Positions 28,413 through 54,095 of a stretch of DNA of 64,000 bases are shown here, piece by piece. The stretch spans positions 1-64,000 of the IMG/VR virus record IMGVR_UViG_3300007513_000015. The stretch is one strand, 5' to 3'. The position numbers and the translations under genes were made by a program. Numbering within the stretch: the first letter of the stretch is position 1; every line of letters starts with the position of its first letter. Origin of the DNA: a virus. The notes under the pieces are model-generated. The model worked only from the letters and a program-made list of their open reading frames with translations. It searched no databases and was not told the DNA's origin.

Positions 28413-31400
28413 ATGGCCAACGATAATTTTTCCAAAACTCCAGCAAAGTTTCTTTCAATCTTTGTAGAGAGAATGGTTCCTGATTATGTTCGGGAAGATC
28501 ATCCTATGTTCATTACTTTCTTACGGAAGTATTTTGAATATCTGGAAAGGGAAACGGACGTCAATGGTGAACTTGGTGAATATTCTCAGATTACAGATTT
28601 AATTCAGAATGTTGATATTGACCACGCTTTGGATCAATTTATACCAGAGTTCGAGAAACAATATCTAACAACAACTCCACACACTGCAATCGATCCCACT
28701 GTACCTACTACAGATAAGGCATTCCTTGCTAAAAATATTCAAGATGTTTATCGACAAAAAGGTACAACATCTGCACTTAATTTTCTATTCAGAAGAGATT
28801 TTAATACCGATGTAAATGTTATTTATCCGAAACAGTGGTTGATGAAATCGTCTGGTTCAATTTGGTATGAGCCAAAATGGATTACAGTTCTAACAGATAA
28901 AGAGACCACTAATCCTGAATCTGAATACTATAATGAGATTGAAAATGTTCATACTGCTGAAACTGTAAGGACAGTATATAATAAGAAAGTTATTGGTCAA
29001 ATATCTGGGGCTACTGCTTTCATTGATATGGATGAAAGTTCAGCAACTTCTGATTATGAGAAGTTACTTTTAACAGAAGTTTCAGGAGAGTTCATCAAGG
29101 GCGAGCCAATCTGGGAAGATGTTGGTACATCTGGTCAGATACCATACGTTGCTGTTATTATCTCGGAAGGCATCGAAACTGAAGGTGAATGTATAATCAA
29201 CGGTAACTCTTGGGCAGATCGTTGGATGCATATCACAACCCATCCGAATGAAGTTAAGTATATCATATCAGAAGGCGCTGGCGCGATTAAAGGTACTACA
29301 TCAAATGCAACAGCGATTATTGAAGGATTTAATACAGACTGGACACGATTTGACCTAAAAAATATTGATGGTGAGTTTGTTGTTGGTGAGAATATTTTCA
29401 ATACTGCTGGTTCAATATATTGGGAAAATCCAACATCTTCGTTCTGTTCCTCAAGTAATGATTATCCGCTATTCACATTTGATAATGAAATTGATTGTGT
29501 AAATGCACTGCATCCAGAAGGACATATTAATGAATCACCTTTCTTCGGTGAACCAGCATTTCTACACTGGTTCCCATTAGCCGAAGTTACTTCAACTATA
29601 CAAAGCGTAGAAAATAACATTCTCACAGAAGGCACAGCACGGCCAGTTACTCGTGAACAGTGTAATAATCTTCTTGATGGTTCTCATTCAAAAGTTAAAA
29701 CTGCTGTTTGGAAGACAAATGGTTATTGGTTAGATTCTGGCGGATTCTTATCATCTGATAGAAAACTCCAAGATAATAGTTATTATCAGGACTTCTCTTA
29801 TGTAATTAAATCTGATGTTCCTGTACAGACATACCGTGAAGTATTAAAGAAGCTGGTTCATCCAGTTGGTCTAAAACTATTTGCTGAATTCTCATTCCAG
29901 TCTACCGTAGACCTTAAGGTTGAAATGCCATCGAATTATGTTAAATTGATTACATACATCTTCTCATATCTTGATGTTGCTATTGATATTTGGGACCAAG
30001 AGTCAGAACAACACGGTACAGTTGGAAGAGCGCATACTGGATTTGGTGTTTATCTTGAAGATGGATTTGATGAATATGTTGTAGAAATTATGAATATGAT
30101 GGACAATAGATCCGCATTAATTTCTGCTGAATCTTGGGATAATCCAACAGACCATCTATCTGTAAACTTTGAGATTGATGCTGGTAGAATTGGCACTATA
30201 GTTAAAGAGAAACTATATACAATTTCTTGGATGAATGAAGATGTAAGAAACTCAATTCTTGCTTGGCCAGAAACAACTGCTCTTGAATTCACAAAACAAT
30301 TGAAGGTTCTACCTATTGATGAATTCCCGTCTGCAACACAAGAATTGGAAATTGTTGATGATTTGTATAGTTCCACAGATGGTAGAATGATTTCTGCTGA
30401 AATTTGGGAAATGTCTGTATATAAAGCACTTCAAAAACTTGTTGAATGGGTTGATTCATTTATGCCAGAGGCAGACTATGCGCCTGAGAAATCATACAAG
30501 TATTTTGAGGCTAATAGAGAATCAAATAGAATTCACAATATTTATGGCGTAACCAATGATGTAATTGATACTGTTGAGATTCAGGCATTTGAAAGTGAAC
30601 ACGAAATCCATTCTCACGGAGAAAAGAATGGATTTGCTCCTCTTGTGGAGACTGTTATCACAAAAGGACTTGAATTGCCTGAAATGAATGTTGGGGCTTC
30701 GGCATTCCACGTTCACGATTTTAATGGTGAGCAAATCAAGAATCTTATTGTACACGGCAAAGAAGCAACTGCAAGAGGATTATCACACCAAGAAGCAAGA
30801 GATTTGATTAATAGAAACGCATTCGAGATTCCAACATTCTATGGTGCTAATCTCGTTTGTGGTGGAATTATGACACCTCCTCTTTGGGGTGATTGGGTTG
30901 CTTCTGAAACTGATCCACGTTATAATGGTATCGGAGAATGTTTCAATTCACAATACACAAACGAAGCTGATTGTGTGGCGTTCTTTGGTGACCCAATGTT
31001 CTGGATGAATCCAATGTGTTCCGATCAAACATCTCCAGACGAAGCGACTTGTCATACTAATTCACAATCTTGGGGCTATTTCACACTTGAATCATTATCT
31101 CCACTGAAAGGACACGCCTCATATTTTGAACCTGGTGAAGTTGTTGATAGACAAAGAGGGCGTACTGCTGATCCTCTTTCAAGAATACAAGCACGACAAT
31201 TAATTGATGGTGATATCACTTCTGTTACACTATATGACAATATCGGTAAACTTGATAATGGTCATCCTATTGTTGATGAATACGATGTGACTCAAGGTGG
31301 CACAATCACGAATATCCACGGAGAAATTACTTCTGCCCATTATCACGAATATGAAGTGACATATGATGCTGATTGGGAAAACAAAACTGACTGGCAGAAT

Positions 31401-34400
31401 AATCCATTAACTCACGGATTTATATACACTCCTGTAACTACTTGGCTATGTTTCAACTATCAGCCAGACAAGATTGTTGATCCTGATTCTATGGGTGGAA
31501 TGGACTTTATGGGCAATCAATGGCCTCAGAACGTCTTTATGGAAGTTTCGGACGAATATGTTGCTGGTTTCTTAAACAATCCTGATGTTACACTACAACA
31601 CAATCAAGTATGGAGTGAACAGCTAAATCCAAATGTTGATTGGGTAGAAATTTACTCATCTAATCATATTGCTCAAATTGCCGGCACTGGTGATACTGGA
31701 GACCTAGTAAGTGCTACTATGTTGACAGATCAAGTAACTGATATCGCCACTATTGAAGCATATCCAATGGATAGTAATAAAGTTGTTATTTGTGACCAAG
31801 CTGGATTGATTTATCTATTAGACACCATAACTGGCGCAACTGATGGTTTTATGGACTTGACTTCATTGAATCTAACTATTGGTCTCGGCCCGTTCGCAAA
31901 CTATGATGAACGAGGATTGCTTGGTATAGCGTTTCATCCTGACTATGTTAATAATGGTAAGTTATATGTTTACTATATGACAGAACAGGGCGGCACAACT
32001 GGTGCTTGGGGGTATCCTCTTTCATCTACTGTTATATCAGAATTCACTTCTGCTGATCCTGCTACTCATTCTGTAGACATTTCAACAGAAAGAGTCCTAA
32101 TGACTATTCCACAGCCTGATTTCAATCACAATGGTGGTGAACTAGCATTCGGACCAGATGATATGCTGTATATTGGTCTTGGTGATGGTGGTTCTGCTGG
32201 TGACACTTCTCCGCTTACAGGCCACGGTGGACACGGCAACTATGGTAATGCTCAAAATCCTACTAATCTACTTGGATGTATTCTTAGAATCGATCCTACA
32301 GAGGATACAGTAAACAATCTACCGTATACTATTCCTGTGGATAATCCATTTACTGCTTCAATTTACGGCCCAGATTCAGTAGCATATAGGCCTGAAATCT
32401 TCGCATTCGGATTCAGAAATCCTTGGAGATTCTCTTTTGATAACACTGGAAGACTTTGGTGTGCTGATGTTGGTCAAGATAAATTTGAAGAGATTAATAT
32501 TGTAGAATCGGGCGGCAACTACGGTTGGAGAGTAATGGAAGCATATCATTACTATGAAGAACAACAACCAATTATTGACCAAATTGCTATTGATTTAGGA
32601 TATACTACTACAAACGAATACTTGAATGACTTAAAGCAACCTATTCACGAATATTCTCACGGCACTGGTATTTCAGTGTGTGGTGGTTTTGTGTATCGTG
32701 GTACTGCTATGCCTGAACTGGTAGGTAAGTATATCTTTGGTGATTGGTCTACTACGTGGGAAGGTACATCTGGTCATTTATATACATTAGAAGAGAATAA
32801 TGAGGGACTATCTGCTCATTTTATTGTTCTGCCGAATCCAACAAATGGCTCTACCCATAGTCATACACTAACATTAACTGCGGCACACGTTCAATTCTTA
32901 CAAGCAAATCCAGGATCACCTGTTGTGGTGACTCAGACGGATTCTGTTCATTCTGAATTCTATGTTCATACATTTACAATGATATGGAGTACAGCAGATA
33001 ATCAATTCCATCTTGTTGGTCAGACAAATCCTGAAGGACACGACATATTAGAGTTTGATAAGTGGTCAGATGATTTTGCATATATAAGAAAACCTCTTTC
33101 ATTTTGGGATCCTGTGACCGAAGTTGTCACCCTTACCACATATGACGAATCATTATTAACTATCGGCGAAGATACAGATGGAGAATTATACTTCTCCACC
33201 CGTGGTGGTATTGACACTGCTCAAGGAACTGGCCCAAATAATACAAACATTTATAAGTTAACAGAAACTTACAGTTCTGTTGATATTCCTAATGCACCAG
33301 CTCAGATACCAGCTACGGAAGTGGCTCACGTTCACGGATACAAAGTGACGTATGATAATGAGAATATGTTCCAAGTCGAAGAGATTTCAGATATCGAAAT
33401 GCAAGATTGGGATGAATTCTGGCCTATCTGGTCATTAAATGATCCAGCTTCCCATATTCATCCTGTTATCACATCTTGGACTGGTGTTACTGATAAAGAT
33501 ACCATTATTGGTTCCTCTGCTGGATGGTATTATAACGAAGAGAATGATATTTGGGAACCATATGACACTGGTGCAGATACACCTTGGACACCTGAGACTG
33601 ATGATGGACCAACTACATTCTATATTGAAAATGCTCCTATTGTAAACATTCTTGGTGCAAATGAGTATGGAGAAAACACTCACATCCACTATTTTGATAG
33701 TTCACAACTTGACACACTTGGTGCAAATTCAGATAGACTCGCTACACCACTCACACGTATCCAAGCACAAGAATTAGCAAATGGTGTTGTGAATGAAGTA
33801 ATTATTTACTCATCTATCATTAACTCTGGCAATAGATTACATTATCATAAGTATAAGATTCTTTGGAATTTATCCACTCAACAATTCATTGCAAATGAAA
33901 TCGGTGAATTCTGGGATGAATATAACACTGGTGAATACACTATGGTAACAGAGGACACAAGAACTCACGAGCATACATTGACAGTAGATGGATTAACTAC
34001 TCACTTAGGATGGAATGGTACTCCACTTCATTCTGCTCCTGATGTAACTCTTGCAAATGCCCACGATTGGGACAATCTTGAAGGGTCTGAAATTGATCAT
34101 CTTCATTCATTTAATAATACAACACTTGATACAATTGGTGTTAATGCAGGAAGACAATCTCTTCCTATAACAGATGAACAAGCAACTGACTTGATTAATG
34201 GCGATTCAGCAGAAATTATGATATATTCTTCTATCGCAAACGGCGACCATTATCACGGCATTCGTGTAACCTATGATAGTGATTCATTGTCATTCATTGC
34301 CCAGGATGTGGAGAAATGGGAATCTACAGATGGTGCTCAGTTCTTCAACACTACGCCAAGGTCACACGCTCACGCAACAAGTGTTTCTAATGTTATTTCA

Positions 34401-35861: not shown

Positions 35862-35885
35862 TGTAACGATAATTATTTTTAGATG

Positions 35886-42456: not shown

Positions 42457-42465
42457 GAGAATAAA

Positions 42466-42675
42466 GTGAAAGAACTAAATTACACCAAAGATAGAAAAAC
42501 AGGTGCTGTTATCTTCAATGATGTGGATGCTTATGCTCAAAGAAAAAAAGTAATTGAGAAACAGAAAATCACTAAGGCTGTAGAGAAAGATTCTAAAAAA
42601 GTTATAAATAGTCTTAGAAATGAAATTAATGGGCTGAAACAACTCCTAAAAGGTTTGATTGAAAATCAAGGATAA
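42466..42675 (+). CDS. small coiled-coil protein following the VrlC-like gene
   Basis: KD..TGAVIFND..AY motif, C-terminal coiled coil; AGGAG RBS. Confidence 0.7.
   Translation: MKELNYTKDRKTGAVIFNDVDAYAQRKKVIEKQKITKAVEKDSKKVINSLRNEINGLKQLLKGLIENQG
42603..42610 (+). promoter_or_regulatory. T4-type late promoter
   Basis: TATAAATA upstream of 42680/42890. Confidence 0.55.
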
Positions 42676-42679
42676 TTCT

Positions 42680-42871
42680 ATGATTGGAACTACTGAAATA
42701 CCATACGTAAGAAAGGACGAAACTTTCAAAACTTGGCGTGAACGTACAAATCAAATGATTCAGCAACAAAATAATTTCGTTAGAATGCAGGAATTTGAGA
42801 TGCTGGGAGTAAGTGATCCATATGTTACTACTTCAATGCAGTTAAATTACGCAAGTGAAACAACTGATTAA
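42680..42871 (+). CDS. small structural protein
   Basis: ETFKTWRERTN motif like the N-termini of T4-like fibre proteins. Confidence 0.6.
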   Translation: MIGTTEIPYVRKDETFKTWRERTNQMIQQQNNFVRMQEFEMLGVSDPYVTTSMQLNYASETTD

Positions 42872-42889: not shown

Positions 42890-45800
42890 ATGGCACACTA
42901 TACAGGTCACAAATTCACTTTAACTGAATTAAATACAATAGAACAACAGAAGAGTGATTTTCTCAACTCTCTGAATATTAAATTATCTGCTCCTGATCTG
43001 TTAGTTAAGGATCTATCTCTGATGTTGAAGTCTCTGGAAGTAATGGAGAATCTTGAGCATTTACCAGAGTATAAAGACTTTCTGATTAATGTTGCTAATC
43101 GTTCTGCAACATTTGTTAATCCAACAGAAATGATTCCTAATGGTGGTTTTGATGTAACATATAACACAACAAACCTTGTCACCAATTCGTCTTTTTCTGC
43201 TGATGCTTTTGAACTTGAAATAATTAAAAACTCTGGTTTTGATGTTCCTGTTGACCTTGCACGTCCTTGGGCGAATGGTATTGCATATAAGTTTGATACA
43301 TTATTTACAGAAGGCACTCAAATTGTTCAAGCATTCACTGATGGACAACAGACTGCTCTTACTTGGTTCGAGACTGAATTAAAACCCAATACACAGTACA
43401 AGTTTTCTTATGACTTGACTGTAAATCCAGTTAATTGGGATTTACTGAGTGGTGGCTTCAATATGGTTGATATACCATCTTCTGATAAAGCAGTATTCTC
43501 GGAGACTGGCGGCGGCCCTGATCCACAAACATTCATTTGTTCTGTAATTGAAGATGCATCTTTGGTTCGTCCTACTTGTGATGGCGTTGCCATCGAGTGG
43601 AATACTTCTATTGAACAAATGGCTATTGATTGTCAATCTGGCGGCGGCGTTTGGGATGAAGGCGCTATTAATGATCCACAAGCACAAAATCACATACTGA
43701 TTCCTTATCATATTAATGCTCGGGAAGGCGACACAATCATTTTCACTAATCCATCTACATCTATTCTGGTTCACAATGCTGTATCTGATGATAATATTGC
43801 ATTCATTTCACCAGACTTAAATCCAGGAGAATCTTGGTCTTGGGTAGTTGACGGTTATCACGACTTGTATTTCCACTGTACATTCCACCCACTTGAAGAA
43901 GGTCGTTTAACTTCCACAACTAATCATAGATACGTTTATGCTATCGACCACGGTTTGAATCCGGGCGATACAGTTAAGATTCCTATTAATTATGGTGCGA
44001 ATGTTGCATTACCATCATTATCAAATTCTTATGCTATTAACTTAGCATTACCACAATCTTGTACTTCACTTGGTGGTGCGGGCGACCAAAATGTAGTTGA
44101 GTCTCTATATCACGATTTATCAATTGGTAATATTGTTTCCTTCCAGTCTGGTGAAGTTGAAACGAATCCTGATGCTGGTGTTCCTGTTGATGTAGTTTTT
44201 CAAGGCGGCACTGGTTCAGATACTGCTAATGCGTCTGCGAGTGTTCAAGTCACTGGCGGTGTTGTTTCTGATATATCACTAACAAGTGGTGGTTCTGGAT
44301 ATATTGAAATTCCTACAGTTTATATTGTGGGTGGAGGCGGTGCTGGTGCTACTGCATCAATTAATTTCTCTGGCAACATAACATCTATAAGTATTGATGA
44401 TATCGGTTCTGGTTACCAAACTGCTCCTACTGTTCAAATATCTGCTCCAGATGTAGCAACAATTCCTGATGGTATTGGTGGCACAATACCAACAACTCCA
44501 GCAACTGCTATAGCAACAATTAATGCCTCTGGGTCAATAGATTCTATTACCATTACGGAGAATGGTAGTGGTTACCATTCTCCTCCAACTATTACACTTG
44601 TAGGTGGTACACCTACAGTAGCAGGTAGTGTTAGTGGAGAAATTAACGGTTCTGTTCTTGGTATTACACTTATATCAGGTGGCTCAGGTTATGGTTCTGG
44701 TGATGGTTCTGTTGGAGTAGGCGAACGTAAATGGGAAGAATATATTATTACTGCTGTTCAAAAGGGCGATGCTCGTGTAGATATATTCTTTGATGATGTT
44801 AATGTTATCGGACACTTGCATACTGCTGAATTAACTCCTGCTGAATATCAACAGATTAAGAATGGCACACCTACAGTTATTATGACTTCTACTGATGGTG
44901 AAGGTTCTGGAGAGAATTCTCCTCACTCACACTCTGCAACTTTCGATTGGGATCCTGCATTAAATAATGGCGACGGTGGTATGTACCTTGTTGGTATGAC
45001 AGGTTCACACACTCACGGAATGCAGAACTATTATGATATTACTGGCGGCACTAAGGTAGAACTTACTAACTTCGGTCACTATCACGAGATTCTAATTTCT
45101 CTTGATGATGAGGCTACTCTTAAGGCCGCTCCACTACAGAATGTAACACAGGATACTGACGGTACTTGGAGTGCTACTTCAGGCAATACACTGATTCTTA
45201 CTTCTGACTACGGTACTTCTGATCCTCAGCATTTCCATACTCTTGAGATGGGGTGTTTGGATCCAGACAATGATACTTACTTAATCATTGCTATTGACCA
45301 GCATATCCACGATTTCGATAGAGTTTGGTACCCTGGTTCTTCACAGTTTACACTTGGTCAGTATAATTTTGCGTTAGGTGGAGATGATACTAATCCCACA
45401 TCTATTAATCTTCCATTTATTGATATTATTGGATATGTTAAGAAAGATAAAGGTATCGAATGTGATGCTCACGGCTTGAAAGCTGGCGATAAAGTTCATT
45501 ATCAGAATGTTTATAACGGCATTCATCACGGTAATACTAACTACTTTGTTGACTATGTTATCGATTGGGATCACTTTGTATTAACCGAATCTGTTATTTA
45601 TCCGCTTGAAAATGCTCCTGGCACAACTCCAACACAATTCGATGTTGTTGAATCTTATGAAGTTGTTGCGGATTTAGCATCATATAGATTTGAAGTAGAA
45701 AGAGATTTAACAAATCACGTTGGTTCTCCATTTATTGAAGGCGTAGAGATTCATTGGTCACGTCCTAGAACAGTAAAATCAACCAATCACGGACTTTCTG

Positions 45801-48800
45801 TTGGCGATGTTGTTCAGTTACCTTCTGGACCACAACCATATACACCATCTGAATTACCTGGTGCTATGAACGACCATACTGTTGTTGCGCTTGGTGATGG
45901 TTATGGCCCGACTGACAATATGGAAATCACTGTAGATACGCAAACTACATTAACATTTGTTGATCCAGACACCACTACTGTTGAAGGCGCACAAGACTCA
46001 CCTTGGTACTGGACTTGGTGGGATCATTCTGATCCATCATATGCTCCTTATCAAGTAGATGAAGCAGTGGCAGCATCATTTGGTGGTAACGAAGGAACAA
46101 CAGGTGGTTTTGACTTATATCGTGGTGGTACATATAAATTCACTAATAATGCTTGGAATCCATCAGGTCATATCGTACAGCCTGATCCATTCACTGGACT
46201 CCCTACTCCAATGTATATGCACGCGGCTGGTGTTAAAGCTATTCTCGGCGCAGGGTGGGATAATCTAGTTGAAGCGGGTATGGTACAGAATGATGGTAAG
46301 AAGTGTGTTTCTATGAGAGCAGATCACGGTCTAACTATCGTTGCTGGTGATCATAATCCATTCAACAATCTTGAAGAGGAGCCAGGCAACTGGACTTCTA
46401 CAGAAACATTCCCGGTTTGTATGGGGTTAAATGGTTGGTGTGAAGAGTTAGACGTTGATGGATGGTACTACAATGGCGAAGATGATAAACAGACTTGTTT
46501 AGATTTGAATCCAACAAGTGAGGTTGGATTAGCGCAATGGAGAGAATCACAATACATTGGTAACTTCTCTAAAGAATTCACTTGGAAGATTCCTGAAGAT
46601 TTCGGTCTTACTGGTTCTGATGGTAATTCTGGACTTGGTCCATTTGTTGCGCCTGGCGAAGTAAATGGATACTATGCTGTAGAAGCTGATGGTGGTCTAT
46701 ATAAATTTGATAAAGAAGGTATGATTGAAGGTACTAACAGAACAGTCAACCTTTATCGTGGTGGCACTTATCGCTTCCGTGTGAATGCGGCTGGTCACCC
46801 AATGTATATTACAACTGATGATGGTTCACACTTTACTCCAGGTGCTTATTTTGGTGAGTATCTACTTGGTGTAAATGGTTCAAGAGCAGAAGAGGGAGCT
46901 GGTGACCAAACATACGCTGATTCTTCTAACTTTGGTCTTGATGGGGCAGGCGTTCCTAAATATGAAATTTTAGAATTCACTGTACCATCTGTCGCTCCTG
47001 ATACACTTTACTATCAGTGTGCTTGGCACGCTTCTATGATGGGACAATTCAATATTATTGACTTGCCTGTTGTTAATGCTGGTGAAGATATTGTTGTTTA
47101 CTACCATCACGGTCAGGACAATATGTACACTCCTCTACATATTAAGGATAAGATTGTTGTTGATAACGGCACTTCTACTGACTACTTCCAGGTACAGCCT
47201 GAGCCAGTAAATTCATTCCCAGTAAAAGGAACTCAAGCAGACGTACTTAATGAAGGCAATCTGTTAACTGCTACAGGTGAAGGTGCAATTCCAAAGATTC
47301 AAGCAATGAATATTGAACTTGGCACTACATCTTATATTGATCCACTTGTGATGATTCCAGGAATTGGTTCTGAGCAATTCCTTGTAACAAACAATGAAAG
47401 TGGTCTTGCTAAGGTTTATATCAGTGTTGATATAGATAAGCGTTCTAATATCTCTCTTGATAACGTAACATTCAAGGAAGTTGTATGGACAGAATCTGGT
47501 TCTTGGCAGATTCAAGGTGGTACTGCATTTACGAATACTACTGTTGCAGGATATATTGAGCAGATTGTTACTGGTTCAATTGTTGAAGGCACAACATACG
47601 AGATCCAATACGATATCGTAGAATCATTCAAGGATGACTTTGATGCGGAAGTTGGAACAGTTCAAGCAGTTCTTATTGGTGATACTATTGTTGAAGGCAC
47701 ATCTAATACTACAGTTGGACACTACTCCGAAACAGTAATTGCTCCTGCTAATACAAATATATTGAGACTAAATAACACAGGTAAGGGTAAGATTGATAAT
47801 GTTTCAATCCGTGAACGTGTAACTGGTCAAAATGCTTGGTATATGGGTGAAGGCTGGAATTCAGTCGGAGGTAAAGCATATATTGACGGCACTATCTCTT
47901 CTAAAACAGAAGTTAACCAGACTGTTGATATTGAGACTGGTAAACTATATGAAGTTAAGTATAATTTAGCAGACCTCGACCCTAATGATAACGGTATGTC
48001 TGGTAGATTACGTGTTACTCTAGGTACTAATCCTGAGAATTTAATTTCAAATTGGAACTTTGATTTCACTGATCCTGTTCTAGTTAATTGGACAACTTCT
48101 GGTCCTGATGTACAGATTGTTAATGAGAAGTTAATTTTCAATTCTTCTACAAATGGCACTGCTACATACACCTTAGCTAATGCTCTTGTTAAGAATGAGA
48201 AGTATGAAGCAACTATTGATTGTGATGTGTTTGATGAAAATATCTTGAATTTCCAAGTTGGGCCTGGGCCTGCTGGAACTCACGCTCATACATTCCAAAT
48301 GACTGAAACACAGAGTAATTGGTTACAAGAGAATCCATCTGTTAATACGCTATCATTTGTGCAGACTGATGGTTATCACGCAGAAACATATACACACATC
48401 TTTACAATTGCTTGGTCTCAAGATATTATGAGTTATGTGTTAGTTTCACAAACAATTCCTGAAGGTCACGATGAATTAACTCTAGTGTCAACTACTAATA
48501 ACAATCCTACAATTGATGTGTTTGTTGATGGTGTTGCTCAACATACTATTTCTACAACTGGTATCCATCACATTGATTTAGTTGGAGAGGCTTCATCTAC
48601 ATTTATGCTACAGATGAATGGTTCAGGTTCTATCAACTCCGTTAAGCTAGTTGAAGAAGAAATACCAGCAATTGATTATGACTCTACTGGTGTTGTTCCT
48701 AATGGTGAACAATCTTACTATACGAGAGCTGGTTCACACGACTCTAAGATTCACTTCATTGCTGATGTGGACAATAATCGTCCTGAAGAAAATAATCCTT

Positions 48801-50425
48801 ACTACACTAATATTGGTTTTGAAGGATCTATTGATAATATTTCAGTTCGTGAAGTGGAAGAGAATTGGACTTTCGCTTCTCAAGAAGGTGGTAATTCATA
48901 TGTTGACCAAACTTCACAACAGATTTACACTTCTGGTGTTGGTACTGGTGCAAGAGGAATCGCACATATCTCATTTGAAATCACTAATGAAATGAACTAT
49001 CGTGTAGGCTTCAATATTGATAGACCTACTGATTCTATTGTTAAGATTGGTCCTACTCCAGATTCAGACACGTATGGTAGTTTTGAAATCACTGCTAATG
49101 ATAATGATGGAGATAAAGACTTTATATTCACTGCACCAGTTACTGGTGTTGCGTACATAACACTTTCTACTACTGGAAATGGCTTCACTTATTGGGATAA
49201 TGTTTCTGTTAAGACTATTCCTAATCTTTCTTCTGATGAGTATCTATTGCTTGCACGTTCTTTGAATGTGTTTGGTGTACCTATCGGTGGAGAAGAAAGA
49301 TGGAAGAGTGTCCATCTTGATATGGAAAATGCAGACTATACAGGTCAGCCTATCTCTGGTATGCGTACACTGGAATCATTTGGCGAATCAGTGATTGAAA
49401 ATTACTATGATGTTAACAGACGTTCTAATGATATCTTGAATCCACCTGTATCTCTGACCGGTATGAATATTGAGTTTGGTACAAGAGCGGTTACAGCAAT
49501 TAATCCTTCTTGTTCTAATGATCTATATAATAATCAAGTAGATTGTGAGACACCTAACGGTACTTGGTTCGATACAGTAGTATCCTTCTGTTCTGATTCA
49601 ATCTATCCAGATGAAGTGTCTTGTATTGAGCCTAATGGTACTTGGACTGCTGGTTCTTGTTCTAATCCAATATATGGAGATGTTTCATCTTGTGAAGATG
49701 CGGGAACGTGTTCTGATTCACAGTTTAACAACAGTGAAACACAGTGTACTACTTCTGGTGGAGTTTGGACTTCTGATAATAATACTTGGACATTTGGTGT
49801 TTGTACTGACTTATCTTTCAATGACCAATCTTCTTGTGAATCACCAAGAGGAGTTTGGACACCTGAGAATCCAGCTCATTGTACTGACTTATCTTTCAAT
49901 GACCAATCTTCTTGTGAATCACCAAGAGGAGTTTGGGATGCTACTGTAGTTGAGGCAATGACTGGAGACACAATCGAAGTAACTGGTGCTGGTATTGATC
50001 CAAACTATATTATCACTATTGGTGGGGTTGAACAATCATCTTCACCAATAAATCTACCAACTAAGGTTAACTTTATATTAAATGCTGATACTCCACTAGG
50101 AATACAAGAATTTAAGATTACAAATATTGACGGTGATTTTGCTATACTTGATGTGCCATTCACTGTACTTGATCACTTGAGAATCATTACTGTTACTGAT
50201 AATCTTGATGGCACTTATGGAGTTACAGGAGCATCATTTGAATCTACTACAACAGTAACACTTATTGACCAAGCAACTACAACTGATTATCCTCAAACGG
50301 TAACATTTGTTGATGCTAACAATATTTCATTTACTGATGTTGTAAATCCTGGTACATATGATGTGAGAGTTGATAATTCTGATGGATCAACATTCACTGA
50401 AATTGATGCAGTAGTTATAGCATAA
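42890..50425 (+). CDS. giant putative fibre/structural protein with cupredoxin domains, HxH repeats, carbohydrate-binding-like and Cys repeats
   Basis: 2511 aa; HNAV...YFHCTFHP, GHPMY...YYQCAWHASM, GSGY repeats, triple-HxH modules, C-terminal CSD..CE..G.W repeats. Confidence 0.8.
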   Translation: MAHYTGHKFTLTELNTIEQQKSDFLNSLNIKLSAPDLLVKDLSLMLKSLEVMENLEHLPEYKDFLINVANRSATFVNPTEMIPNGGFDVTYNTTNLVTNSSFSADAFELEIIKNSGFDVPVDLARPWANGIAYKFDTLFTEGTQIVQAFTDGQQTALTWFETELKPNTQYKFSYDLTVNPVNWDLLSGGFNMVDIPSSDKAVFSETGGGPDPQTFICSVIEDASLVRPTCDGVAIEWNTSIEQMAIDCQSGGGVWDEGAINDPQAQNHILIPYHINAREGDTIIFTNPSTSILVHNAVSDDNIAFISPDLNPGESWSWVVDGYHDLYFHCTFHPLEEGRLTSTTNHRYVYAIDHGLNPGDTVKIPINYGANVALPSLSNSYAINLALPQSCTSLGGAGDQNVVESLYHDLSIGNIVSFQSGEVETNPDAGVPVDVVFQGGTGSDTANASASVQVTGGVVSDISLTSGGSGYIEIPTVYIVGGGGAGATASINFSGNITSISIDDIGSGYQTAPTVQISAPDVATIPDGIGGTIPTTPATAIATINASGSIDSITITENGSGYHSPPTITLVGGTPTVAGSVSGEINGSVLGITLISGGSGYGSGDGSVGVGERKWEEYIITAVQKGDARVDIFFDDVNVIGHLHTAELTPAEYQQIKNGTPTVIMTSTDGEGSGENSPHSHSATFDWDPALNNGDGGMYLVGMTGSHTHGMQNYYDITGGTKVELTNFGHYHEILISLDDEATLKAAPLQNVTQDTDGTWSATSGNTLILTSDYGTSDPQHFHTLEMGCLDPDNDTYLIIAIDQHIHDFDRVWYPGSSQFTLGQYNFALGGDDTNPTSINLPFIDIIGYVKKDKGIECDAHGLKAGDKVHYQNVYNGIHHGNTNYFVDYVIDWDHFVLTESVIYPLENAPGTTPTQFDVVESYEVVADLASYRFEVERDLTNHVGSPFIEGVEIHWSRPRTVKSTNHGLSVGDVVQLPSGPQPYTPSELPGAMNDHTVVALGDGYGPTDNMEITVDTQTTLTFVDPDTTTVEGAQDSPWYWTWWDHSDPSYAPYQVDEAVAASFGGNEGTTGGFDLYRGGTYKFTNNAWNPSGHIVQPDPFTGLPTPMYMHAAGVKAILGAGWDNLVEAGMVQNDGKKCVSMRADHGLTIVAGDHNPFNNLEEEPGNWTSTETFPVCMGLNGWCEELDVDGWYYNGEDDKQTCLDLNPTSEVGLAQWRESQYIGNFSKEFTWKIPEDFGLTGSDGNSGLGPFVAPGEVNGYYAVEADGGLYKFDKEGMIEGTNRTVNLYRGGTYRFRVNAAGHPMYITTDDGSHFTPGAYFGEYLLGVNGSRAEEGAGDQTYADSSNFGLDGAGVPKYEILEFTVPSVAPDTLYYQCAWHASMMGQFNIIDLPVVNAGEDIVVYYHHGQDNMYTPLHIKDKIVVDNGTSTDYFQVQPEPVNSFPVKGTQADVLNEGNLLTATGEGAIPKIQAMNIELGTTSYIDPLVMIPGIGSEQFLVTNNESGLAKVYISVDIDKRSNISLDNVTFKEVVWTESGSWQIQGGTAFTNTTVAGYIEQIVTGSIVEGTTYEIQYDIVESFKDDFDAEVGTVQAVLIGDTIVEGTSNTTVGHYSETVIAPANTNILRLNNTGKGKIDNVSIRERVTGQNAWYMGEGWNSVGGKAYIDGTISSKTEVNQTVDIETGKLYEVKYNLADLDPNDNGMSGRLRVTLGTNPENLISNWNFDFTDPVLVNWTTSGPDVQIVNEKLIFNSSTNGTATYTLANALVKNEKYEATIDCDVFDENILNFQVGPGPAGTHAHTFQMTETQSNWLQENPSVNTLSFVQTDGYHAETYTHIFTIAWSQDIMSYVLVSQTIPEGHDELTLVSTTNNNPTIDVFVDGVAQHTISTTGIHHIDLVGEASSTFMLQMNGSGSINSVKLVEEEIPAIDYDSTGVVPNGEQSYYTRAGSHDSKIHFIADVDNNRPEENNPYYTNIGFEGSIDNISVREVEENWTFASQEGGNSYVDQTSQQIYTSGVGTGARGIAHISFEITNEMNYRVGFNIDRPTDSIVKIGPTPDSDTYGSFEITANDNDGDKDFIFTAPVTGVAYITLSTTGNGFTYWDNVSVKTIPNLSSDEYLLLARSLNVFGVPIGGEERWKSVHLDMENADYTGQPISGMRTLESFGESVIENYYDVNRRSNDILNPPVSLTGMNIEFGTRAVTAINPSCSNDLYNNQVDCETPNGTWFDTVVSFCSDSIYPDEVSCIEPNGTWTAGSCSNPIYGDVSSCEDAGTCSDSQFNNSETQCTTSGGVWTSDNNTWTFGVCTDLSFNDQSSCESPRGVWTPENPAHCTDLSFNDQSSCESPRGVWDATVVEAMTGDTIEVTGAGIDPNYIITIGGVEQSSSPINLPTKVNFILNADTPLGIQEFKITNIDGDFAILDVPFTVLDHLRIITVTDNLDGTYGVTGASFESTTTVTLIDQATTTDYPQTVTFVDANNISFTDVVNPGTYDVRVDNSDGSTFTEIDAVVIA
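49801..49936 (+). repeat. exact 58-bp direct repeat, period 78 bp
   Basis: 49801-49858 identical to 49879-49936 (CTDLSFNDQSSCESPRGVW twice). Confidence 0.9.
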
Positions 50426-50441
50426 AGAGATACTAAACTAT

Positions 50442-50468
50442 TATAAATAGTTTTAATTATTATAAATA
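50442..50468 (+). promoter_or_regulatory. two tandem T4-type late promoters
   Basis: TATAAATA at 50442-50449 and 50461-50468. Confidence 0.75.
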
Positions 50469-50504
50469 TAATCAGAAATAGATTTAATTTGGAGATAAAC
50501 TAAA

Positions 50505-53500
50505 ATGTCCGTAACACTATCAAACATAACAACTGCGGTTGATCCGTTTAACGATATTCCAGATATTACATTTGATAGTATCGACATCACGGCTTTCACC
50601 GAAGAAGTAGAAATTTATACTAACACTCCTGCGGTGATGATTCCAACTAAGTTGAACGCAATGGCTGGTTCAATGAAAACTTGGTTGAATGATAATATTA
50701 GTGCGCCACTAGAGAACCAACAAAACACATTCAAGAATGAAGTGATTATAAGAACCAACACTGCTATGAATGCTGTTGAAACCTATATGAATGATGAAGT
50801 TCAAGGTTTCGTTAATACAGTATTTGTGCCTTGGGCAAACGATGCTGGTAATATTCTTTCAAATCACGCAAACATTCTTGAAACTAATGTGACTGGAACA
50901 ATATCACAGTTACAAAGTGACTACACTCTTCACGTTGAATCTCAGGATGCTATTATCCAGCAGGCCCTTGATGATATATTATCTAATATTGCTCAATATA
51001 CTTCTGGTGCGGCAGATTCTGGTTATTCTATTCATCAAACCAATGAATTACTTGCCGATGTTACGATGACTCGTGAGATTGGATTTGATAACTACAAATA
51101 CAATGCAGAAGGTCAGATCACATTCGCAGAAGAAGGACCAAATAGAACACATCATATTTCATATAACAAATCAACTGGCGCTATTCAGGCATTTGGTGAG
51201 TCAATGCAAATCGAAGGTGAGCCTCGTCCATTCGTTCAACATCTTAAACTTGAACAAGAGGCTTCTACTGGCTCAACTTCTGTTACTAAGATTAAAGCAT
51301 ATGATATAAACAAGTATGTATCCACTACTAATGTTAATTCATTCAGAGGAACTGGACACGAAGAAGATGGCACACCGGCTGTTGAATTAACTATTCTTAA
51401 TAATACGTCTATTGCTGATACTGATAATCCTGAACTTGTCTTGAGAAGAGGTATTGATTCAGCTATGATGTGGGGTAGTCTTGATGATGGTGATTTTATT
51501 ACAATCACAAATCTTGATGGTTCTATTTACAATGAAGGTATTGTTGGCCAATATGCACAGAACTATGATACAACTTTATTTAAGCCTTATTCTTCCTATT
51601 GTCACGATTCAACATCATCCGTAACTGGATGGGGTGTGGATGCTAGTATGAATGCTATTGATATTGATTCTTCTGGCGGCCTATATGACACTCCTGTAAA
51701 ATGTGAAATGTATAAAGATTCTAATGTTGCTCTTTTAGATGATTTAAGTCGTTCTTATGAGTTTAATATTGCTGGTGAATCTTATGATTCTGATTTATCT
51801 GATGGTCTTATCTATAATGTATACATTAATGATGATTCCGGTTTCATTGATTCGTATGCATACACAATTGATGCTAATGGCAAACAAGATACTGGTGCAA
51901 TCTTAAATGCTGTTTATGATAATGGTGTTTCAGATGTTACAATCACTAATAGAGGTACAAAATATTCTAAAAACTCATCTGCAAGAGCATTTGATTTAGG
52001 TGCTGTTGATGTTACAGGTTCCATTGAAACAAAAGCAGTAGCAACTCATACATTAAAGAATGGTATGGTTGATGAGATTTTAATTACTAATGCTGGTGCA
52101 GGTTATACCGGATATTATGAAATTATCGTTCCTGAAGTTCCGGGTGGTGATGGTCATACTCATACATTACAATTTTCACAAGCAATAATTAATCAAATTA
52201 AAGCAGGAACTCCTCAAGTCGGCGCAACCGTTGAGGCAGGTCACTCACACGATATTACTGTTGCTTGGAATGATTTTAACAATTCATTCATTCTAACACA
52301 AACAGTTGGCGGTGGTCACGACCACGAAATGACTATTACAACACATAATGTTAATCCAACAATTACAGTAGCATTCACAACAAATACTGGTGGTCTTGCT
52401 GATGGTTATGTTGTATTAGCAGAAGATGGAACAGTAGATGAAGTTATTATAACTAATGGTGGTGCTGATTATGGAGTAGGAGATACAGTCTCTATTAGTG
52501 GTGGAGCCCCTGCTACTCCTGCGCAAGTATCAATGAATCTTGCTGATGGTGGTATCGCAAGTATTGCAGTTTCAGATCAAGGTACTGGATATACTGATAA
52601 TACAGCAAAGACTGTTCAGGTGGATATTCAAAACAATACTTTCACTCCGTCCGTTATTTCTGTAAATGTTGGAGATACAATCGACTTTACAAATCTTGAT
52701 ATTCAAGCGCATACAGTAACACATACTGATGGAATGTTTAATTCTGGTGATATTCCACAAAATGCTACATTCTCATATACAGTCACAAAGGACACTGAAT
52801 TAACAGATAGATATGATATTGTTGATGAGAATAATACTGAAACTACTGCTACTCTTTGGGTTCGTGAAAACACGGTATTTGTTGAAATGAACACAACAAC
52901 TGGTGGTGGTCTGAGAGGTCTTGGTACTATTAATGCATCAGGAAACTTAATTGATATTGCTGTTGATAACCCAGGAAAAGGATATAATGCAACAGATACA
53001 GTTCGTATTATTGATGTATCTGGCCCAGGAGAAGGAGCATATGCTTCTGTAGAAACTAATCGCTCTATTGGTGCTGTTACTGTTGTGAATAAGGGAACTG
53101 GTTATTCTGAGAATACTCAAATTCTTGCGTTTGATCCTACTGGTACTCCTATCATTGATTCTGCTACTGGATTAGAAACAGGAAGAACATATGGTTCTGG
53201 AGCTATTTTGAGACCAAATTTAACAACAGAATACGTTCCAGCTGTTTGTTCTGATTCGCAATTTCTCGTTCAAGCGGATTGTGAAGGGGCCGGGGCAACT
53301 TGGAGTGCAGAAATCACTATAGGTGAAATAATTGATGTTACTGTAGCTGATGGCGGCTCTAATTATAATGATATTCAACTTATTATTAATGATCCTGCTG
53401 GAACTGGTGCAGGTGGTTCATTGACACCAGATGTTAATAATATAATCTCTGATGTAAGTTTGACTAATCGAGGTTCAAATTACAATGAGCCTATCATAAT

Positions 53501-54095
53501 TATATCTGATCCTTCAGGTAAGATTGGTACTACTTTAGATAGCACAATTGGCGGTGGATTCGCTGGAACAGTCACACTTAATAATGGTATCGGCTCGGCT
53601 ACAATCGTTGAAGATTGGCAAAATTATATTGATGGACAAACAAGAGTTATAGTAGTTGATGCAGATCCTATTCCTACTGGTTACGGTGCTACTGGCACAG
53701 TTCAACTTGGAGCGGCAGGCAATGTTTCATCTATCACATTCACTAATCCTGGAACTGCTTATAAGCAACCTGTAGTGGTGGTTGCAGGACCAGTTAGTTA
53801 TACTGGTGCTTCTATCAATAATGTTAATACTGATTTAGCACTGTATGGGCCAGAAGGAAATACAGATAATAGCCCATTTTCTGCTAATAACACAGCCGGA
53901 ACAAACTTTAAGAATGGTATTATGATTCAGTTTGAGAATCCAAATGGTCATTCTATGGATGATTATTGGACATTCAAATGCCAGTCTTGGAAAAAAGGAA
54001 CGCCAGATTCACTACTATACACTTCTAGTAGATATGATGGTAATAATGAAAATATGCGTGGAATTATTACATTGAAAGATGTATGGGACGTTTAA
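50505..54095 (+). CDS. large putative fibre/structural protein with G-x-G-Y repeats, a triple-HxH module and a degenerate cupredoxin
   Basis: Repeated ITNxGxGY; GHTH/GHSH/GHDH; FTPSVISVNVGDTIDFTNLD..AHTVT. Confidence 0.8.
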   Translation: MSVTLSNITTAVDPFNDIPDITFDSIDITAFTEEVEIYTNTPAVMIPTKLNAMAGSMKTWLNDNISAPLENQQNTFKNEVIIRTNTAMNAVETYMNDEVQGFVNTVFVPWANDAGNILSNHANILETNVTGTISQLQSDYTLHVESQDAIIQQALDDILSNIAQYTSGAADSGYSIHQTNELLADVTMTREIGFDNYKYNAEGQITFAEEGPNRTHHISYNKSTGAIQAFGESMQIEGEPRPFVQHLKLEQEASTGSTSVTKIKAYDINKYVSTTNVNSFRGTGHEEDGTPAVELTILNNTSIADTDNPELVLRRGIDSAMMWGSLDDGDFITITNLDGSIYNEGIVGQYAQNYDTTLFKPYSSYCHDSTSSVTGWGVDASMNAIDIDSSGGLYDTPVKCEMYKDSNVALLDDLSRSYEFNIAGESYDSDLSDGLIYNVYINDDSGFIDSYAYTIDANGKQDTGAILNAVYDNGVSDVTITNRGTKYSKNSSARAFDLGAVDVTGSIETKAVATHTLKNGMVDEILITNAGAGYTGYYEIIVPEVPGGDGHTHTLQFSQAIINQIKAGTPQVGATVEAGHSHDITVAWNDFNNSFILTQTVGGGHDHEMTITTHNVNPTITVAFTTNTGGLADGYVVLAEDGTVDEVIITNGGADYGVGDTVSISGGAPATPAQVSMNLADGGIASIAVSDQGTGYTDNTAKTVQVDIQNNTFTPSVISVNVGDTIDFTNLDIQAHTVTHTDGMFNSGDIPQNATFSYTVTKDTELTDRYDIVDENNTETTATLWVRENTVFVEMNTTTGGGLRGLGTINASGNLIDIAVDNPGKGYNATDTVRIIDVSGPGEGAYASVETNRSIGAVTVVNKGTGYSENTQILAFDPTGTPIIDSATGLETGRTYGSGAILRPNLTTEYVPAVCSDSQFLVQADCEGAGATWSAEITIGEIIDVTVADGGSNYNDIQLIINDPAGTGAGGSLTPDVNNIISDVSLTNRGSNYNEPIIIISDPSGKIGTTLDSTIGGGFAGTVTLNNGIGSATIVEDWQNYIDGQTRVIVVDADPIPTGYGATGTVQLGAAGNVSSITFTNPGTAYKQPVVVVAGPVSYTGASINNVNTDLALYGPEGNTDNSPFSANNTAGTNFKNGIMIQFENPNGHSMDDYWTFKCQSWKKGTPDSLLYTSSRYDGNNENMRGIITLKDVWDV

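What the first reader, a model, noticed from the sequence alone, without database searches (positions are those of the whole stretch)
28413..54095. Candidate metallo-redox virion: dehydrogenase-like propeller, cupredoxins and His6 modules built into baseplate/fibre proteins
Seen: three giant late structural genes (28413, 42890, 50505) together encode a GSDH/PQQ-GDH-like propeller, one intact and two variant cupredoxin domains, roughly ten related His-rich modules (most with three HxH motifs) and many Cys pairs. Known: quinoprotein dehydrogenases can pass electrons to blue copper proteins such as azurin or amicyanin, and HxH motifs bind Fe/Zn in T4 gp37/gp12. Inference: the particle may carry a surface redox or metal-scavenging apparatus, for example oxidising surface sugars, docking on metal-uptake receptors, or resisting metal/oxidative damage. 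I know of no described phage virion with this combination. This is my lead candidate for a new system in the window.
Basis: partly seen in the sequence, partly recalled or inferred. Interest (0 to 1): 0.88.

Follow-up and report, generated by a model that had tools for sequence, protein, structure and literature searches.

The report
Metal-site add-on domains on phage baseplate
An uncultured ocean T4-like phage has built a sugar-dehydrogenase-type propeller, blue-copper-type domains and about a dozen copies of an unnamed histidine-rich module into its baseplate and fibre proteins, so the particle probably carries bound metals, but nothing shows that these parts form one linked redox machine.

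Summary
The genes at 28413, 42890 and 50505 encode three giant late virion proteins.

- **Propeller:** Pfam GSDH, E 1e-33.
- **Cupredoxin-type domains:** one has a complete His/Cys/His/Met site, one has Glu in place of the axial Met, one has no Cys, and there is also a degenerate half copy.
- **His-rich modules:** 10 complete and 2-3 partial copies.
- **Cys pairs:** many, and invariant across relatives.

In 13-16 orthologues from IMG/VR (63-70% identity), 57 of 58 HxH histidines are invariant, against 61 of 108 other histidines (p = 5e-10).

The His module has no Pfam family and no structural match in the PDB. Only 165 of 1.84 billion representative proteins match it.

The intact cupredoxin belongs to a large family that I found described in no paper. 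The family sits on gp9/10-like and fibre proteins of at least 241 cultured cyanophage records, none of which has the propeller.

The three domain kinds therefore occur independently outside this clade, and a coupled redox chain is not supported. It is not excluded either, because one cellular relative of the propeller is naturally fused to a cupredoxin.

My best reading is independent metal-stabilised adhesion or structural add-ons. This scan already followed up the same architecture on related genomes, with similar conclusions.

The parts
28413..35861 (+). gp7-like baseplate wedge protein, 2482 aa (P0001); the N-terminal ~510 aa is the gp7-like core
   Evidence: phrog_17744 baseplate wedge E 4e-46. 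PF23786 at 36.2 bits, above the cut-off of 27. Lies between gp6 (26629) and gp8 (35944).
31800..33257 (+). GSDH/HHIP-like beta-propeller (aa ~1130-1615), with a His module nested before its last blade
   Evidence: Pfam GSDH E 1e-33. PDB: HHIP 7e-25, sGDH 1e-13. About 45% identity to cellular 'PQQ-dependent sugar dehydrogenase' proteins. Motifs NHNGG, GFRNPWRFSF and GGNYGW are invariant or nearly invariant (80% or more per residue) in orthologues.
32838..33062 (+). His module B1 (aa 1476-1550), nested in the propeller
   Evidence: phmmer E 4e-13 to the module of protein 2. H1482, 1484, 1513, 1519 and 1543 are invariant.
30594..31427 (+). Early split or partial His module(s) (aa ~728-1005), interrupted by two-Cys mini-modules (aa 816-880)
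   Evidence: HxH at 733, 766 and 976 are invariant; Cys 816/843/854/869/880 are invariant where the region is present.
33312..33482 (+). Partial His module (aa 1634-1690; second and third HxH only)
   Evidence: HVH 1639 and HIH 1681 are invariant.
33663..35747 (+). Array of four long (A-type) and one short (B-type) His modules: aa 1751-1860, 1890-1993, 2016-2131, 2275-2389, 2375-2445. The last two share one HxH.
   Evidence: phmmer E 7e-15 to 1e-5 between copies. Aligned in A5. All HxH are invariant.
42890..50425 (+). 2511-aa virion protein (P0002), with a late promoter at 42603
   Evidence: ORF. PHROG virion structural protein hits on its GxGY repeats. TATAAATA at 42603. Orthologues at 57-71% identity in 25 IMG/VR loci.
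43631..43939 (+). Cupredoxin D1 (aa 248-350): His295, Cys330, His333, with Glu336 where amicyanin-type proteins have the axial Met
   Evidence: Profile search of PDB sequences: cupredoxin domain of a nitrite reductase (9cck) E 2e-4, blue copper protein 5fc9, plastocyanin, amicyanin. The alignment places Glu on the Met. All ligand positions are invariant.
44795..45328 (+). Two tandem His modules (aa 636-715 and 724-813)
   Evidence: All six HxH are invariant.
46052..46309 (+). D2: degenerate N-terminal half of a D3-type cupredoxin (aa 1055-1140), with no Cys loop
   Evidence: hhalign against the D3 family, E 1.7e-4 over the RGGTYxF strand only.
46673..47083 (+). Cupredoxin D3 (aa 1262-1398) with a complete type-1 copper ligand set: His1303, Cys1377, His1380, Met1383
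   Evidence: AlphaFold2 model pLDDT 89.7, pTM 0.83. All of the top 50 Foldseek PDB hits are cupredoxin-fold copper proteins or domains, with AcoP at 4.7e-5. VIA Z 8.5, rmsd 2.5 A, 103 residues aligned to rusticyanin. In 91 family members the first His and the Cys are invariant, and the second His and the Met are kept in at least 90%.
48263..48487 (+). His module (aa 1792-1866), nested between CBM-like repeats
   Evidence: phmmer E 4e-13 to the nested module of P0001. Its His residues are invariant.
49511..49915 (+). Six tandem two-Cys mini-modules (aa 2208-2342)
   Evidence: Cys positions. All invariant or nearly so in orthologues.
50505..54095 (+). 1196-aa virion protein (P0003), with late promoters at 50442 and 50461
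   Evidence: ORF. TATAAATA sites. Orthologues at 62-71% identity in 22 loci.
52137..52343 (+). His module (aa 545-613), the minimal form that was modelled
   Evidence: Model pLDDT 82.6, pTM 0.69: coil-helix-three strands-coil. HxH at 551, 580 and 605 are invariant.
52572..52874 (+). Cupredoxin D4 (aa 690-790), without the Cys/His/Met loop
   Evidence: Pfam Cupredoxin_1 E 4e-6, 27.2 bits against a cut-off of 27. hhalign to D1 E 3.7e-5. H736 and H740 are invariant.

Best explanation
These are three late structural proteins of an uncultured marine T4-like myovirus. One is the gp7 wedge protein; the other two are baseplate-attached or fibre-like proteins. They have accreted small extracellular-type accessory domains of four independent families:

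1. An HHIP-like member of the GSDH propeller family.
2. 'Phage-type' cupredoxins: one with a full type-1 copper site, one Met-to-Glu variant, and ligand-less copies.
3. About twelve copies of an unnamed 70-115 aa alpha+beta module. It carries two invariant HxH pairs and usually a third, and most likely chelates one metal ion within a single chain.
4. Disulfide-type two-Cys mini-modules.

I infer that the metals (Cu in the cupredoxins; Fe, Zn or Ni in the His modules) and the disulfides are acquired at or after lysis. I also infer that they mainly lock these small domains into rigid, seawater-stable shapes on the periphery of the baseplate, where the propeller and the cupredoxin heads act as host-surface binding modules.

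Shown here: domain identities, the fold of D3, conservation of the ligands, and independent distribution of the families. Inferred: metal occupancy, which metal, the single-chain site, and a binding or stabilising role.
For: - Virion context: gp48, gp5, gp25, gp6, gp7-like, gp8 synteny and late promoters.
- Architecture: fixed in every clade member. gp7 has 1 propeller and 7-8 complete modules where the gene is complete. Protein 2 has 3 modules plus D1 and D3. Protein 3 has 1 module plus D4.
- Ligand conservation: 57 of 58 HxH histidines are invariant against 61 of 108 others, p = 5e-10.
- Distant relatives: in 97 module copies from 85 distant proteins, the four core His are 99-100% conserved. 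The third pair is 71-86%, and the next best column is 89%.
- Single chain: the module also occurs in small bacterial lipoprotein-like proteins with Tat-type (RR) signal-like N-termini, which supports a single-chain globular domain. In T4, gp7 is present once per wedge (my knowledge), so its modules cannot lie on a trimer axis.
- D3: cupredoxin fold with H/C/H/M kept across 91 relatives.
- D3 distribution: the family sits on gp9/10-like, collagen, C1q and S74-chaperone fibre proteins. That covers 241 cultured cyanophage records and at least 701 long proteins, with no propeller in the 120 long proteins listed or in the two cyanophage proteins examined.
- Independence: the D3, module and propeller sets overlap only in this clade.
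Against: - No metal was measured, and I could not inspect model coordinates to check that the six His converge.
- The first and last HxH lie in lower-confidence coil in the model.
- Strict conservation of a full type-1 copper site and of the propeller's catalytic-type motifs goes beyond what simple adhesion needs.
- A cellular protein of the same propeller subfamily is fused to a cupredoxin, which hints at a redox partnership.
- Virions assemble in the cytoplasm, where copper loading is unusual.
Confidence: 0.6

Rival explanations
1. Virion-borne redox couple. The propeller binds PQQ/Ca, oxidises a host-surface or dissolved sugar, and passes electrons to the type-1 copper cupredoxin(s) on neighbouring proteins.
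For: - The propeller keeps the NHNGG, GFRNP and GGNYGW motifs of its cellular subfamily at about 45% identity.
- P0347, a 550-aa cellular member of that subfamily, carries a C-terminal PF00127/PF13473 cupredoxin.
- D3 keeps H/C/H/M under purifying selection.
Against: - D3-type domains occur on tail proteins in 241 cultured cyanophage records, and the propeller has no match in any cyanophage record. They also occur in at least 701 long proteins, none of the 120 listed carrying GSDH.
- Only 1 of the 120 best cellular relatives is such a fusion, and its cupredoxin is the classical type, not the D3 type.
- The best solved relative is non-enzymatic HHIP. The last blade reads FGEDxxGELY-like, not the RxR of sGDH (residue roles are from my knowledge).
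- No PqqD lies on the contig (record only 54% complete).
- No terminal electron acceptor is evident.
- The donor and acceptor sit on different proteins of unknown geometry.
Confidence: 0.1
2. Ferrojan-Horse-type docking or scavenging. The His modules carry iron or another trace metal, which the phage uses to dock on host metal-uptake receptors or to deliver metal to the infected cell.
For: - HxH motifs bind Fe in T4 gp37, and have been proposed as iron ligands in marine phage tails (PMC11705849; Ferrojan literature).
- The clade is marine, with about 12 modules per set of proteins.
Against: - The modules lie inside the gp7 wedge protein and in mid-chain positions, not at distal tips.
- The predicted fold is a small globular alpha+beta domain, not the gp37 needle.
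- Bacterial relatives are ordinary secreted lipoproteins.
- No receptor evidence exists. No iron permease lies on the contig.
Confidence: 0.1
3. No metal at all. The conserved His and Cys serve hydrogen bonding, pH sensing or protein-protein contacts, and the domains are purely structural spacers or adhesins.
For: - No metal was measured.
- Two of the four cupredoxin-like domains have lost ligands and are still conserved.
- HHIP-type propellers act by binding, not catalysis (my knowledge).
Against: - Paired HxH histidines are the most conserved columns across a family at about 20% identity.
- The H/C/H/M set is kept across 91 D3 relatives.
- Both patterns are classic signatures of metal sites.
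Confidence: 0.15

Closest known systems
T4 gp7 baseplate wedge protein and the giant gp7-like proteins of marine cyanomyoviruses (e.g. S-RIM2 SWTG_00060)
   Same: N-terminal gp7-like core, position between gp6 and gp8, late expression, and a tendency to accrete many inserted domains.
   Different: No cultured phage in the collection has the propeller or the His modules in gp7. tblastn matches to cyanophages and other cultured T4-like phages cover only the N-terminal gp7-like core (within aa 3-562).
Soluble PQQ sugar dehydrogenases (A. calcoaceticus sGDH, E. coli YliI; Pfam GSDH PF07995) and the HHIP propeller
   Same: Clear homology (Pfam 1e-33; HHIP 7e-25; sGDH 1e-13). The His of the HNGG motif and the RN of GFRNP are kept.
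   Different: Embedded in a 2482-aa virion protein. A His module is inserted before the last blade. The last blade carries the HHIP-like GEDxxGELY signature instead of the sGDH RxR. PQQ binding is untested.
Single-domain type-1 copper proteins (rusticyanin, AcoP, plastocyanin, amicyanin, azurin; PF00127)
   Same: D3 has the cupredoxin fold (Z 8.5 to rusticyanin) and His...Cys-x2-His-x2-Met. D1 aligns to amicyanin-type loops.
   Different: No Pfam PF00127 hit above threshold. D3 belongs to a separate large family (GHPF...YYQCxxHxxM), partly covered by PF25489. That family sits on phage tail proteins such as the C-terminus of S-RIM2 gp9-like and the N-terminus of a P-SCSP2 protein. D1 has Glu for the axial Met.
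HxH iron sites of the T4 gp37 fibre tip, and HxH fibres of marine phages (Alteromonas phage R22Y; Ferrojan Horse hypothesis)
   Same: Paired His-x-His motifs in phage tail proteins, proposed to hold a metal through six histidines.
   Different: Here three HxH lie within about 70 residues of one chain, in a predicted helix plus three-strand domain. The domain is also found in monomeric-looking bacterial lipoproteins and in a one-per-wedge protein, so it is not an intertwined trimer needle. It has no structural match in the PDB or BFVD.

Membership tests
T4 gp7 baseplate wedge | Sequence match to gp7-type wedge families and position between gp6 and gp8 | tested here: met
   phrog_17744 E 4e-46. 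PF23786 at 36.2 bits, above 27. gp6 at 26629 and gp8 at 35944.
GSDH / soluble PQQ sugar dehydrogenase (PF07995) | Pfam model above the gathering score | tested here: met
   117.5 bits against 25, E 1e-33.
GSDH / soluble PQQ sugar dehydrogenase (PF07995) | Catalytic-base His (sGDH His144 position) and the RN of the HRNPQG-type motif | tested here: met
   The His of NHNGG (H1239) is invariant; the flanking residues of NHNGG and the GFRNPWRFSF motif are invariant or nearly so (80% or more per residue) in 15 orthologues. Both are shared with cellular relatives. The equivalence to sGDH residues rests on my knowledge of that enzyme.
GSDH / soluble PQQ sugar dehydrogenase (PF07995) | Last-blade RxR that binds the PQQ carboxylates in sGDH | tested here: not met
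   The phage reads TIGEDTDGELY and its cellular subfamily reads FGEDxxGELY. This matches the HHIP-like group, which is also the best PDB hit.
GSDH / soluble PQQ sugar dehydrogenase (PF07995) | PQQ/Ca binding and sugar oxidation | not testable with these tools
   Needs recombinant protein.
Type-1 blue copper proteins (cupredoxins) | Cupredoxin beta-sandwich fold | tested here: met
   D3 only: Foldseek E 4.7e-5 with all top 50 hits cupredoxin-fold proteins; Z 8.5, rmsd 2.5 A, 103 residues. D1 and D4 by sequence profile only.
Type-1 blue copper proteins (cupredoxins) | His, Cys, His, Met ligand set | tested here: met
   D3: H1303, C1377, H1380, M1383. Not met by D1 (Glu for Met), D4 (no Cys) or D2.
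Type-1 blue copper proteins (cupredoxins) | Pfam PF00127 above the gathering score | tested here: not met
   Best is D4 at 19.0 bits against 21.2. D1 and D3 give no hit.
Type-1 blue copper proteins (cupredoxins) | Copper binding, 600-nm band, electron transfer | not testable with these tools
   Needs protein chemistry.
PF25489 At5g54830-like domain | Pfam model above the gathering score | tested here: inconclusive
   The D3 fragment scores only 11.9 bits (E 0.22). Many D3 homologues found by profile search carry a precomputed PF25489 hit.
gp37-type HxH metal sites of trimeric fibres | HxH motifs with conserved histidines | tested here: met
   29 HxH motifs, with 57 of 58 histidines invariant.
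gp37-type HxH metal sites of trimeric fibres | Intertwined trimeric needle or beta-helix with on-axis sites | tested here: inconclusive
   The monomer model is helix plus three strands. No fibre structure appeared among the listed structural matches. The oligomeric state was not modelled.
Pfam YHYH (PF14240) | Pfam model match | tested here: not met
   No hit at E up to 10 for the A-type module, despite its HYH motifs.

The most novel reading that the evidence does not exclude
The baseplate carries a working extracellular redox device. An HHIP-like GSDH propeller loaded with a quinone cofactor oxidises a host-surface sugar and hands electrons to the type-1 copper domain(s) on the neighbouring giant proteins, with the His modules acting as metal-stabilised struts. 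This would be the first enzyme-plus-electron-carrier pair built into a virion.
Probability: 0.08. Interest if true: 0.92.

Novelty: new variant of a known kind. Interest (0 to 1): 0.58.

Why it matters
- **Metal load:** if the ligands are occupied, each particle of an abundant ocean phage lineage would carry many metal ions. One gp7 copy has 7-8 complete modules and T4 has six gp7 per baseplate, which gives about 45 or more His sites from gp7 alone, plus copper sites. That bears on the debate over phages as trace-metal ligands in seawater (the Ferrojan Horse hypothesis).
- **New domain:** the His module is a compact, unnamed, apparently single-chain poly-His domain with no solved relative. It is a good target for structure determination and metal chemistry.
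- **Copper on phage tails:** the intact copper-type domain belongs to a family present on the baseplates and fibres of hundreds of cultured cyanophages. No paper in the searched library describes it, so its role can be tested in existing laboratory phage-host pairs.
- **Unusual placement:** a dehydrogenase-family propeller inside gp7 is an unusual receptor-binding or enzymatic candidate.

Tried and rejected
- **Cultured phages, DNA:** megablast of the genes against cultured phages gave no match.
- **Cultured phages, protein:** tblastn of P0002, of D1 and of a distant module-bearing protein gave no match. P0003 gave only a weak repeat hit in a Burkholderia phage.
- **Pfam at E up to 10:** nothing meaningful on the isolated modules or on D1, D2 or D3. 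There was no YHYH hit.
- **PDB sequence search:** nothing for whole P0002 or for the D3 profile.
- **hhalign:** D3 against D1 gave only 13% probability, on the copper loop, so D3's fold had to be settled by modelling.
- **ESM Atlas on the module:** no named lead.
- **Module model:** Foldseek PDB best E 0.5. VIA-align against 48,161 chains best Z 3.7. BFVD best E 0.19.
- **Bacterial homologue context:** Genome contigs returned only a 2.9-kb Polyangiales MAG contig with uninformative neighbours.
- **Other genes on the contig:** PqqD and FTR1 were not found on the 99-kb record. This is weak evidence, because the record is only 54% complete.
- **Literature:** searches for cupredoxin, plastocyanin-like, copper-binding or sorbosone dehydrogenase together with phage tail terms found no description.
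- **Not possible here:** model coordinates are not exposed, so I could not measure His-His distances.


Full report
**What the window is.** The region lies in the baseplate module of a T4-like myovirus.
- The + strand ORFs in order are a gp48-like tube cap (19576), a gp5-like hub (22402), gp25 (26217), gp6 (26629, phrog_219 E 1.6e-163), the 2482-aa protein at 28413, gp8 (35944), a 1802-aa DUF4815 protein (37048), the 2511-aa protein at 42890 and the 1196-aa protein at 50505. Small fibre-assembly-like genes follow.
- The 2482-aa protein has a gp7-type N-terminus: phrog_17744 E 4e-46, and PF23786 above its cut-off.
- T4-type late promoters (TATAAATA) occur 17 times in the window, against 7.2 expected. 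They lie at 26182, 35886, 42603, 50442/50461 and 54104, upstream of these genes.
- The phage is uncultured. gp6 is only about 35% identical to the nearest cultured pelagi-, cyano-, Methylophilales and Desulfovibrio myoviruses. The giant genes have no nucleotide match among cultured phages.
- The record is a 99-kb IMG/VR contig, estimated 54% complete.
- A permuted, alpha-type tmRNA at 2878-3147 hints at an alphaproteobacterial host.

**Relatives.** IMG/VR holds many contigs of the same clade.
- There are 25 loci with the 2511-aa protein (57-71% identity) and 27 with the propeller region (61-75%), several on the same contigs.
- Gene order gp7, gp8, DUF4815, protein 2, protein 3 is conserved.
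- A census with profiles built here shows a fixed architecture in every member. gp7 has one propeller and, where the gene is complete, 7-8 complete His modules. Protein 2 has three modules plus D1 and D3. Protein 3 has one module plus D4.

**The propeller.**
- Pfam GSDH matches aa 1164-1443 at E 1e-33.
- The best solved relatives are human HHIP (7e-25), then sGDH (1e-13) and archaeal or bacterial aldose dehydrogenases.
- Stand-alone cellular proteins annotated 'PQQ-dependent sugar dehydrogenase' are about 45% identical, with E down to 1e-92.
- Aligned with these, the phage domain keeps all subfamily motifs: DERGLLG, NHNGG, GDGG, GNAQN, GFRNPWRFSF, ADVGQ..EEIN, GGNYGW and the last-blade GEDxxGELY.
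- From my knowledge of sGDH, the His of HNGG and the Arg-Asn of RNP correspond to catalytic and PQQ-binding residues. The RxR of the last blade has no counterpart here or in the cellular subfamily, which resembles HHIP.
- A His module (aa 1476-1550) is inserted just before the last blade.
- One cellular subfamily member, P0347, is naturally fused to a classical cupredoxin: PF13473 E 3.6e-11 and PF00127 E 2.1e-10. This is a Rosetta-stone hint that such propellers can work with blue copper proteins. It is 1 of the 120 best hits.

**The cupredoxins.**
- D3 (protein 2, aa 1262-1398) is invisible to Pfam and to PDB sequence searches. It belongs to a large family with the signature RGxTYxF...GHPF...TLYYQCxxHxxM.
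- In 91 aligned members the first His and the Cys are invariant, and the second His and the Met are at 90% or more.
- The AlphaFold2 model is confident (pLDDT 89.7, pTM 0.83). All its top 50 PDB matches are cupredoxin-fold copper proteins or domains, with AcoP at 4.7e-5. The second-look aligner gives Z 8.5, rmsd 2.5 A over 103 residues to rusticyanin. D3 is therefore an intact type-1 copper-type cupredoxin.
- D1 (aa 248-350) hits cupredoxins by profile: the C-terminal domain of nitrite reductase 9cck at 2e-4, then 5fc9, plastocyanin and amicyanin. The alignment puts Glu336 on the axial Met. His295, Cys330, His333 and Glu336 are invariant.
- D4 (protein 3, aa 690-790) reaches the Cupredoxin_1 cut-off (27.2 bits against 27) but has no Cys loop.
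- D2 (aa 1055-1140) is a degenerate N-terminal half of a D3-type domain.

**Distribution of D3.**
- D3 matches 241 cultured Synechococcus and Prochlorococcus phage records.
- In S-RIM2 it is the C-terminal domain of the gp9-like 'baseplate wedge tail fiber connector'. In the podovirus P-SCSP2 it is the N-terminus of a 437-aa protein. Both have H/C/H/M intact.
- Among longer proteins, at least 701 carry it. Many also have T4_gp9_10 (PF07880), S74 chaperone, collagen or C1q domains. None of the 120 listed has GSDH.
- No cyanophage has the propeller.
- I found no paper that describes copper-type domains on phage tails.

**The His module.**
- HxH occurs 19, 7 and 3 times in the three proteins, against once in the 1802-aa neighbour.
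- The motifs fall into homologous modules, with phmmer E between copies down to 4e-13. The pattern is HxH, a short helix (L-T/S-x2-Q/E-A-x2-L-x2-G), a strand, HxH at the start of a second strand (often ending in W), a third strand, then HxH.
- Long (A-type) copies have loop insertions. Two copies use H-x5-H and a single His in place of the second and third pairs.
- Across 133 copies (10 paralogues with their orthologues, about 20% identity between paralogues), four His columns are the only invariant ones.
- In orthologues, 57 of 58 HxH histidines are invariant against 61 of 108 other histidines (Fisher p = 5e-10).
- A profile search of 1.84 billion representatives found only 165 proteins at E up to 1e-3. 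They are fibre-like phage proteins with a C-terminal beta-rich region, and small bacterial lipoprotein-like proteins with Tat-type (RR) signal-like N-termini carrying one to three repeats. One of these is from a Polyangiales MAG.
- In 97 near-full copies from 85 of these distant proteins, the four core His are 99-100% conserved and the third pair 71-86%. The best non-His column is 89%.
- The model of the minimal copy (69 aa, pLDDT 82.6, pTM 0.69) is a helix packed on a three-stranded sheet, with the first and third HxH in flanking coil.
- The model has no significant match in the PDB or BFVD, and no Pfam family.
- In T4, gp7 is present once per wedge (my knowledge), and the bacterial relatives look monomeric. 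A single-chain site is therefore more likely than a gp37-style trimer-axis site. I could not measure the geometry.

**Independence of the parts.** Among all proteins fetched here, 210 carry D3, 143 carry the module and 120 carry the propeller. They overlap only in this clade's own proteins and one fragment of a distant protein-2 homologue. This sample is biased by how it was collected, but it agrees with the cyanophage data. It is not a recurring association.

**Reading.**
- The best-supported picture is a baseplate periphery decorated with independent small domains, whose conserved metal ligands and Cys pairs stabilise them outside the cell. The propeller and cupredoxin heads are likely host-surface binders (confidence about 0.6).
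- A true dehydrogenase-to-cupredoxin chain remains possible at about 0.1. The motifs are kept and the P0347 fusion exists. Against it stand the independence of the domains, the HHIP-like character of the propeller, the absence of PQQ genes on the (incomplete) contig and the lack of an evident acceptor.
- Ferrojan-type docking (about 0.1) and 'no metal' (about 0.15) are the other rivals.

**Relation to earlier scan notes.** Notes on this genome, and follow-up reports on related genomes, described the same architecture and reached similar conclusions. They also reported that SAR86 lipoproteins carry the phage-type cupredoxin with a His module, which I did not test. My scores rest on the tests above.

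**Limits.** Only two structure predictions were allowed, so D1, D4 and the propeller were not modelled.

Noticed in passing
window 2878-3147 (+): Phage-encoded permuted tmRNA. It matches Rfam tmRNA_permuted at 99.3 bits and alpha_tmRNA at 57.6 bits, behind a TATAAATA at 2879. This suggests an alphaproteobacterial host.
   Followed up: partly
P0347 (cellular protein, 550 aa): Natural fusion of a GSDH propeller (47% identical to the phage one) with a C-terminal classical cupredoxin, PF00127/PF13473. It is a Rosetta-stone hint for propeller-cupredoxin partnership in cells.
   Followed up: partly
L055 28-384 (+), Polyangiales MAG; also P0101, P0106, P0110: Small bacterial lipoprotein-like proteins with Tat-type (RR) signal-like N-termini, made of one to three copies of a NHGH...HxH...HxHxVTVxC repeat. 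They are distant relatives of the phage His module. The neighbouring genes are uninformative.
   Followed up: partly
L053 5071-6303 (S-RIM2 gp9-like) and L054 3923-5236 (P-SCSP2): Cultured cyanophages carry the D3-type cupredoxin with an intact H/C/H/M set, at the C-terminus of a gp9-like connector and at the N-terminus of a podovirus tail-region protein. This could be tested in existing laboratory systems.
   Followed up: partly
window 49511-49915, 30858-31052, 53247-53282; also aa 133/143 of the DUF4815 protein: Short two-Cys mini-modules (C-x10-11-C, often followed by G.W) are scattered through four virion proteins. There are six in tandem near the C-terminus of protein 2. All are invariant in orthologues.
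   Followed up: partly
window 42466-42871 (+): Two small overlapping ORFs (69 and 70 aa) and a late promoter (42603) fill the 434-nt gap between the DUF4815 gene and the 2511-aa gene.
   Followed up: no
window 35535-35579: The fourth A-type and the last B-type module of gp7 overlap, so one HxH (HDH 2381) serves as the third pair of one module and the first pair of the next.
   Followed up: no
window 13298-16756 (-) and 23404-25878 (+): Two large ORFs (1152 and 824 aa) in the tail/baseplate module have no PHROG match at E up to 1e-3.
   Followed up: no
window 58757-62275 (+): Two tandem NodU/CmcH-type carbamoyltransferase genes (phrog_1601, E 1e-161 and 3e-169), followed by a nucleotide-sugar epimerase, lie just downstream of the fibre genes.
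   Followed up: no
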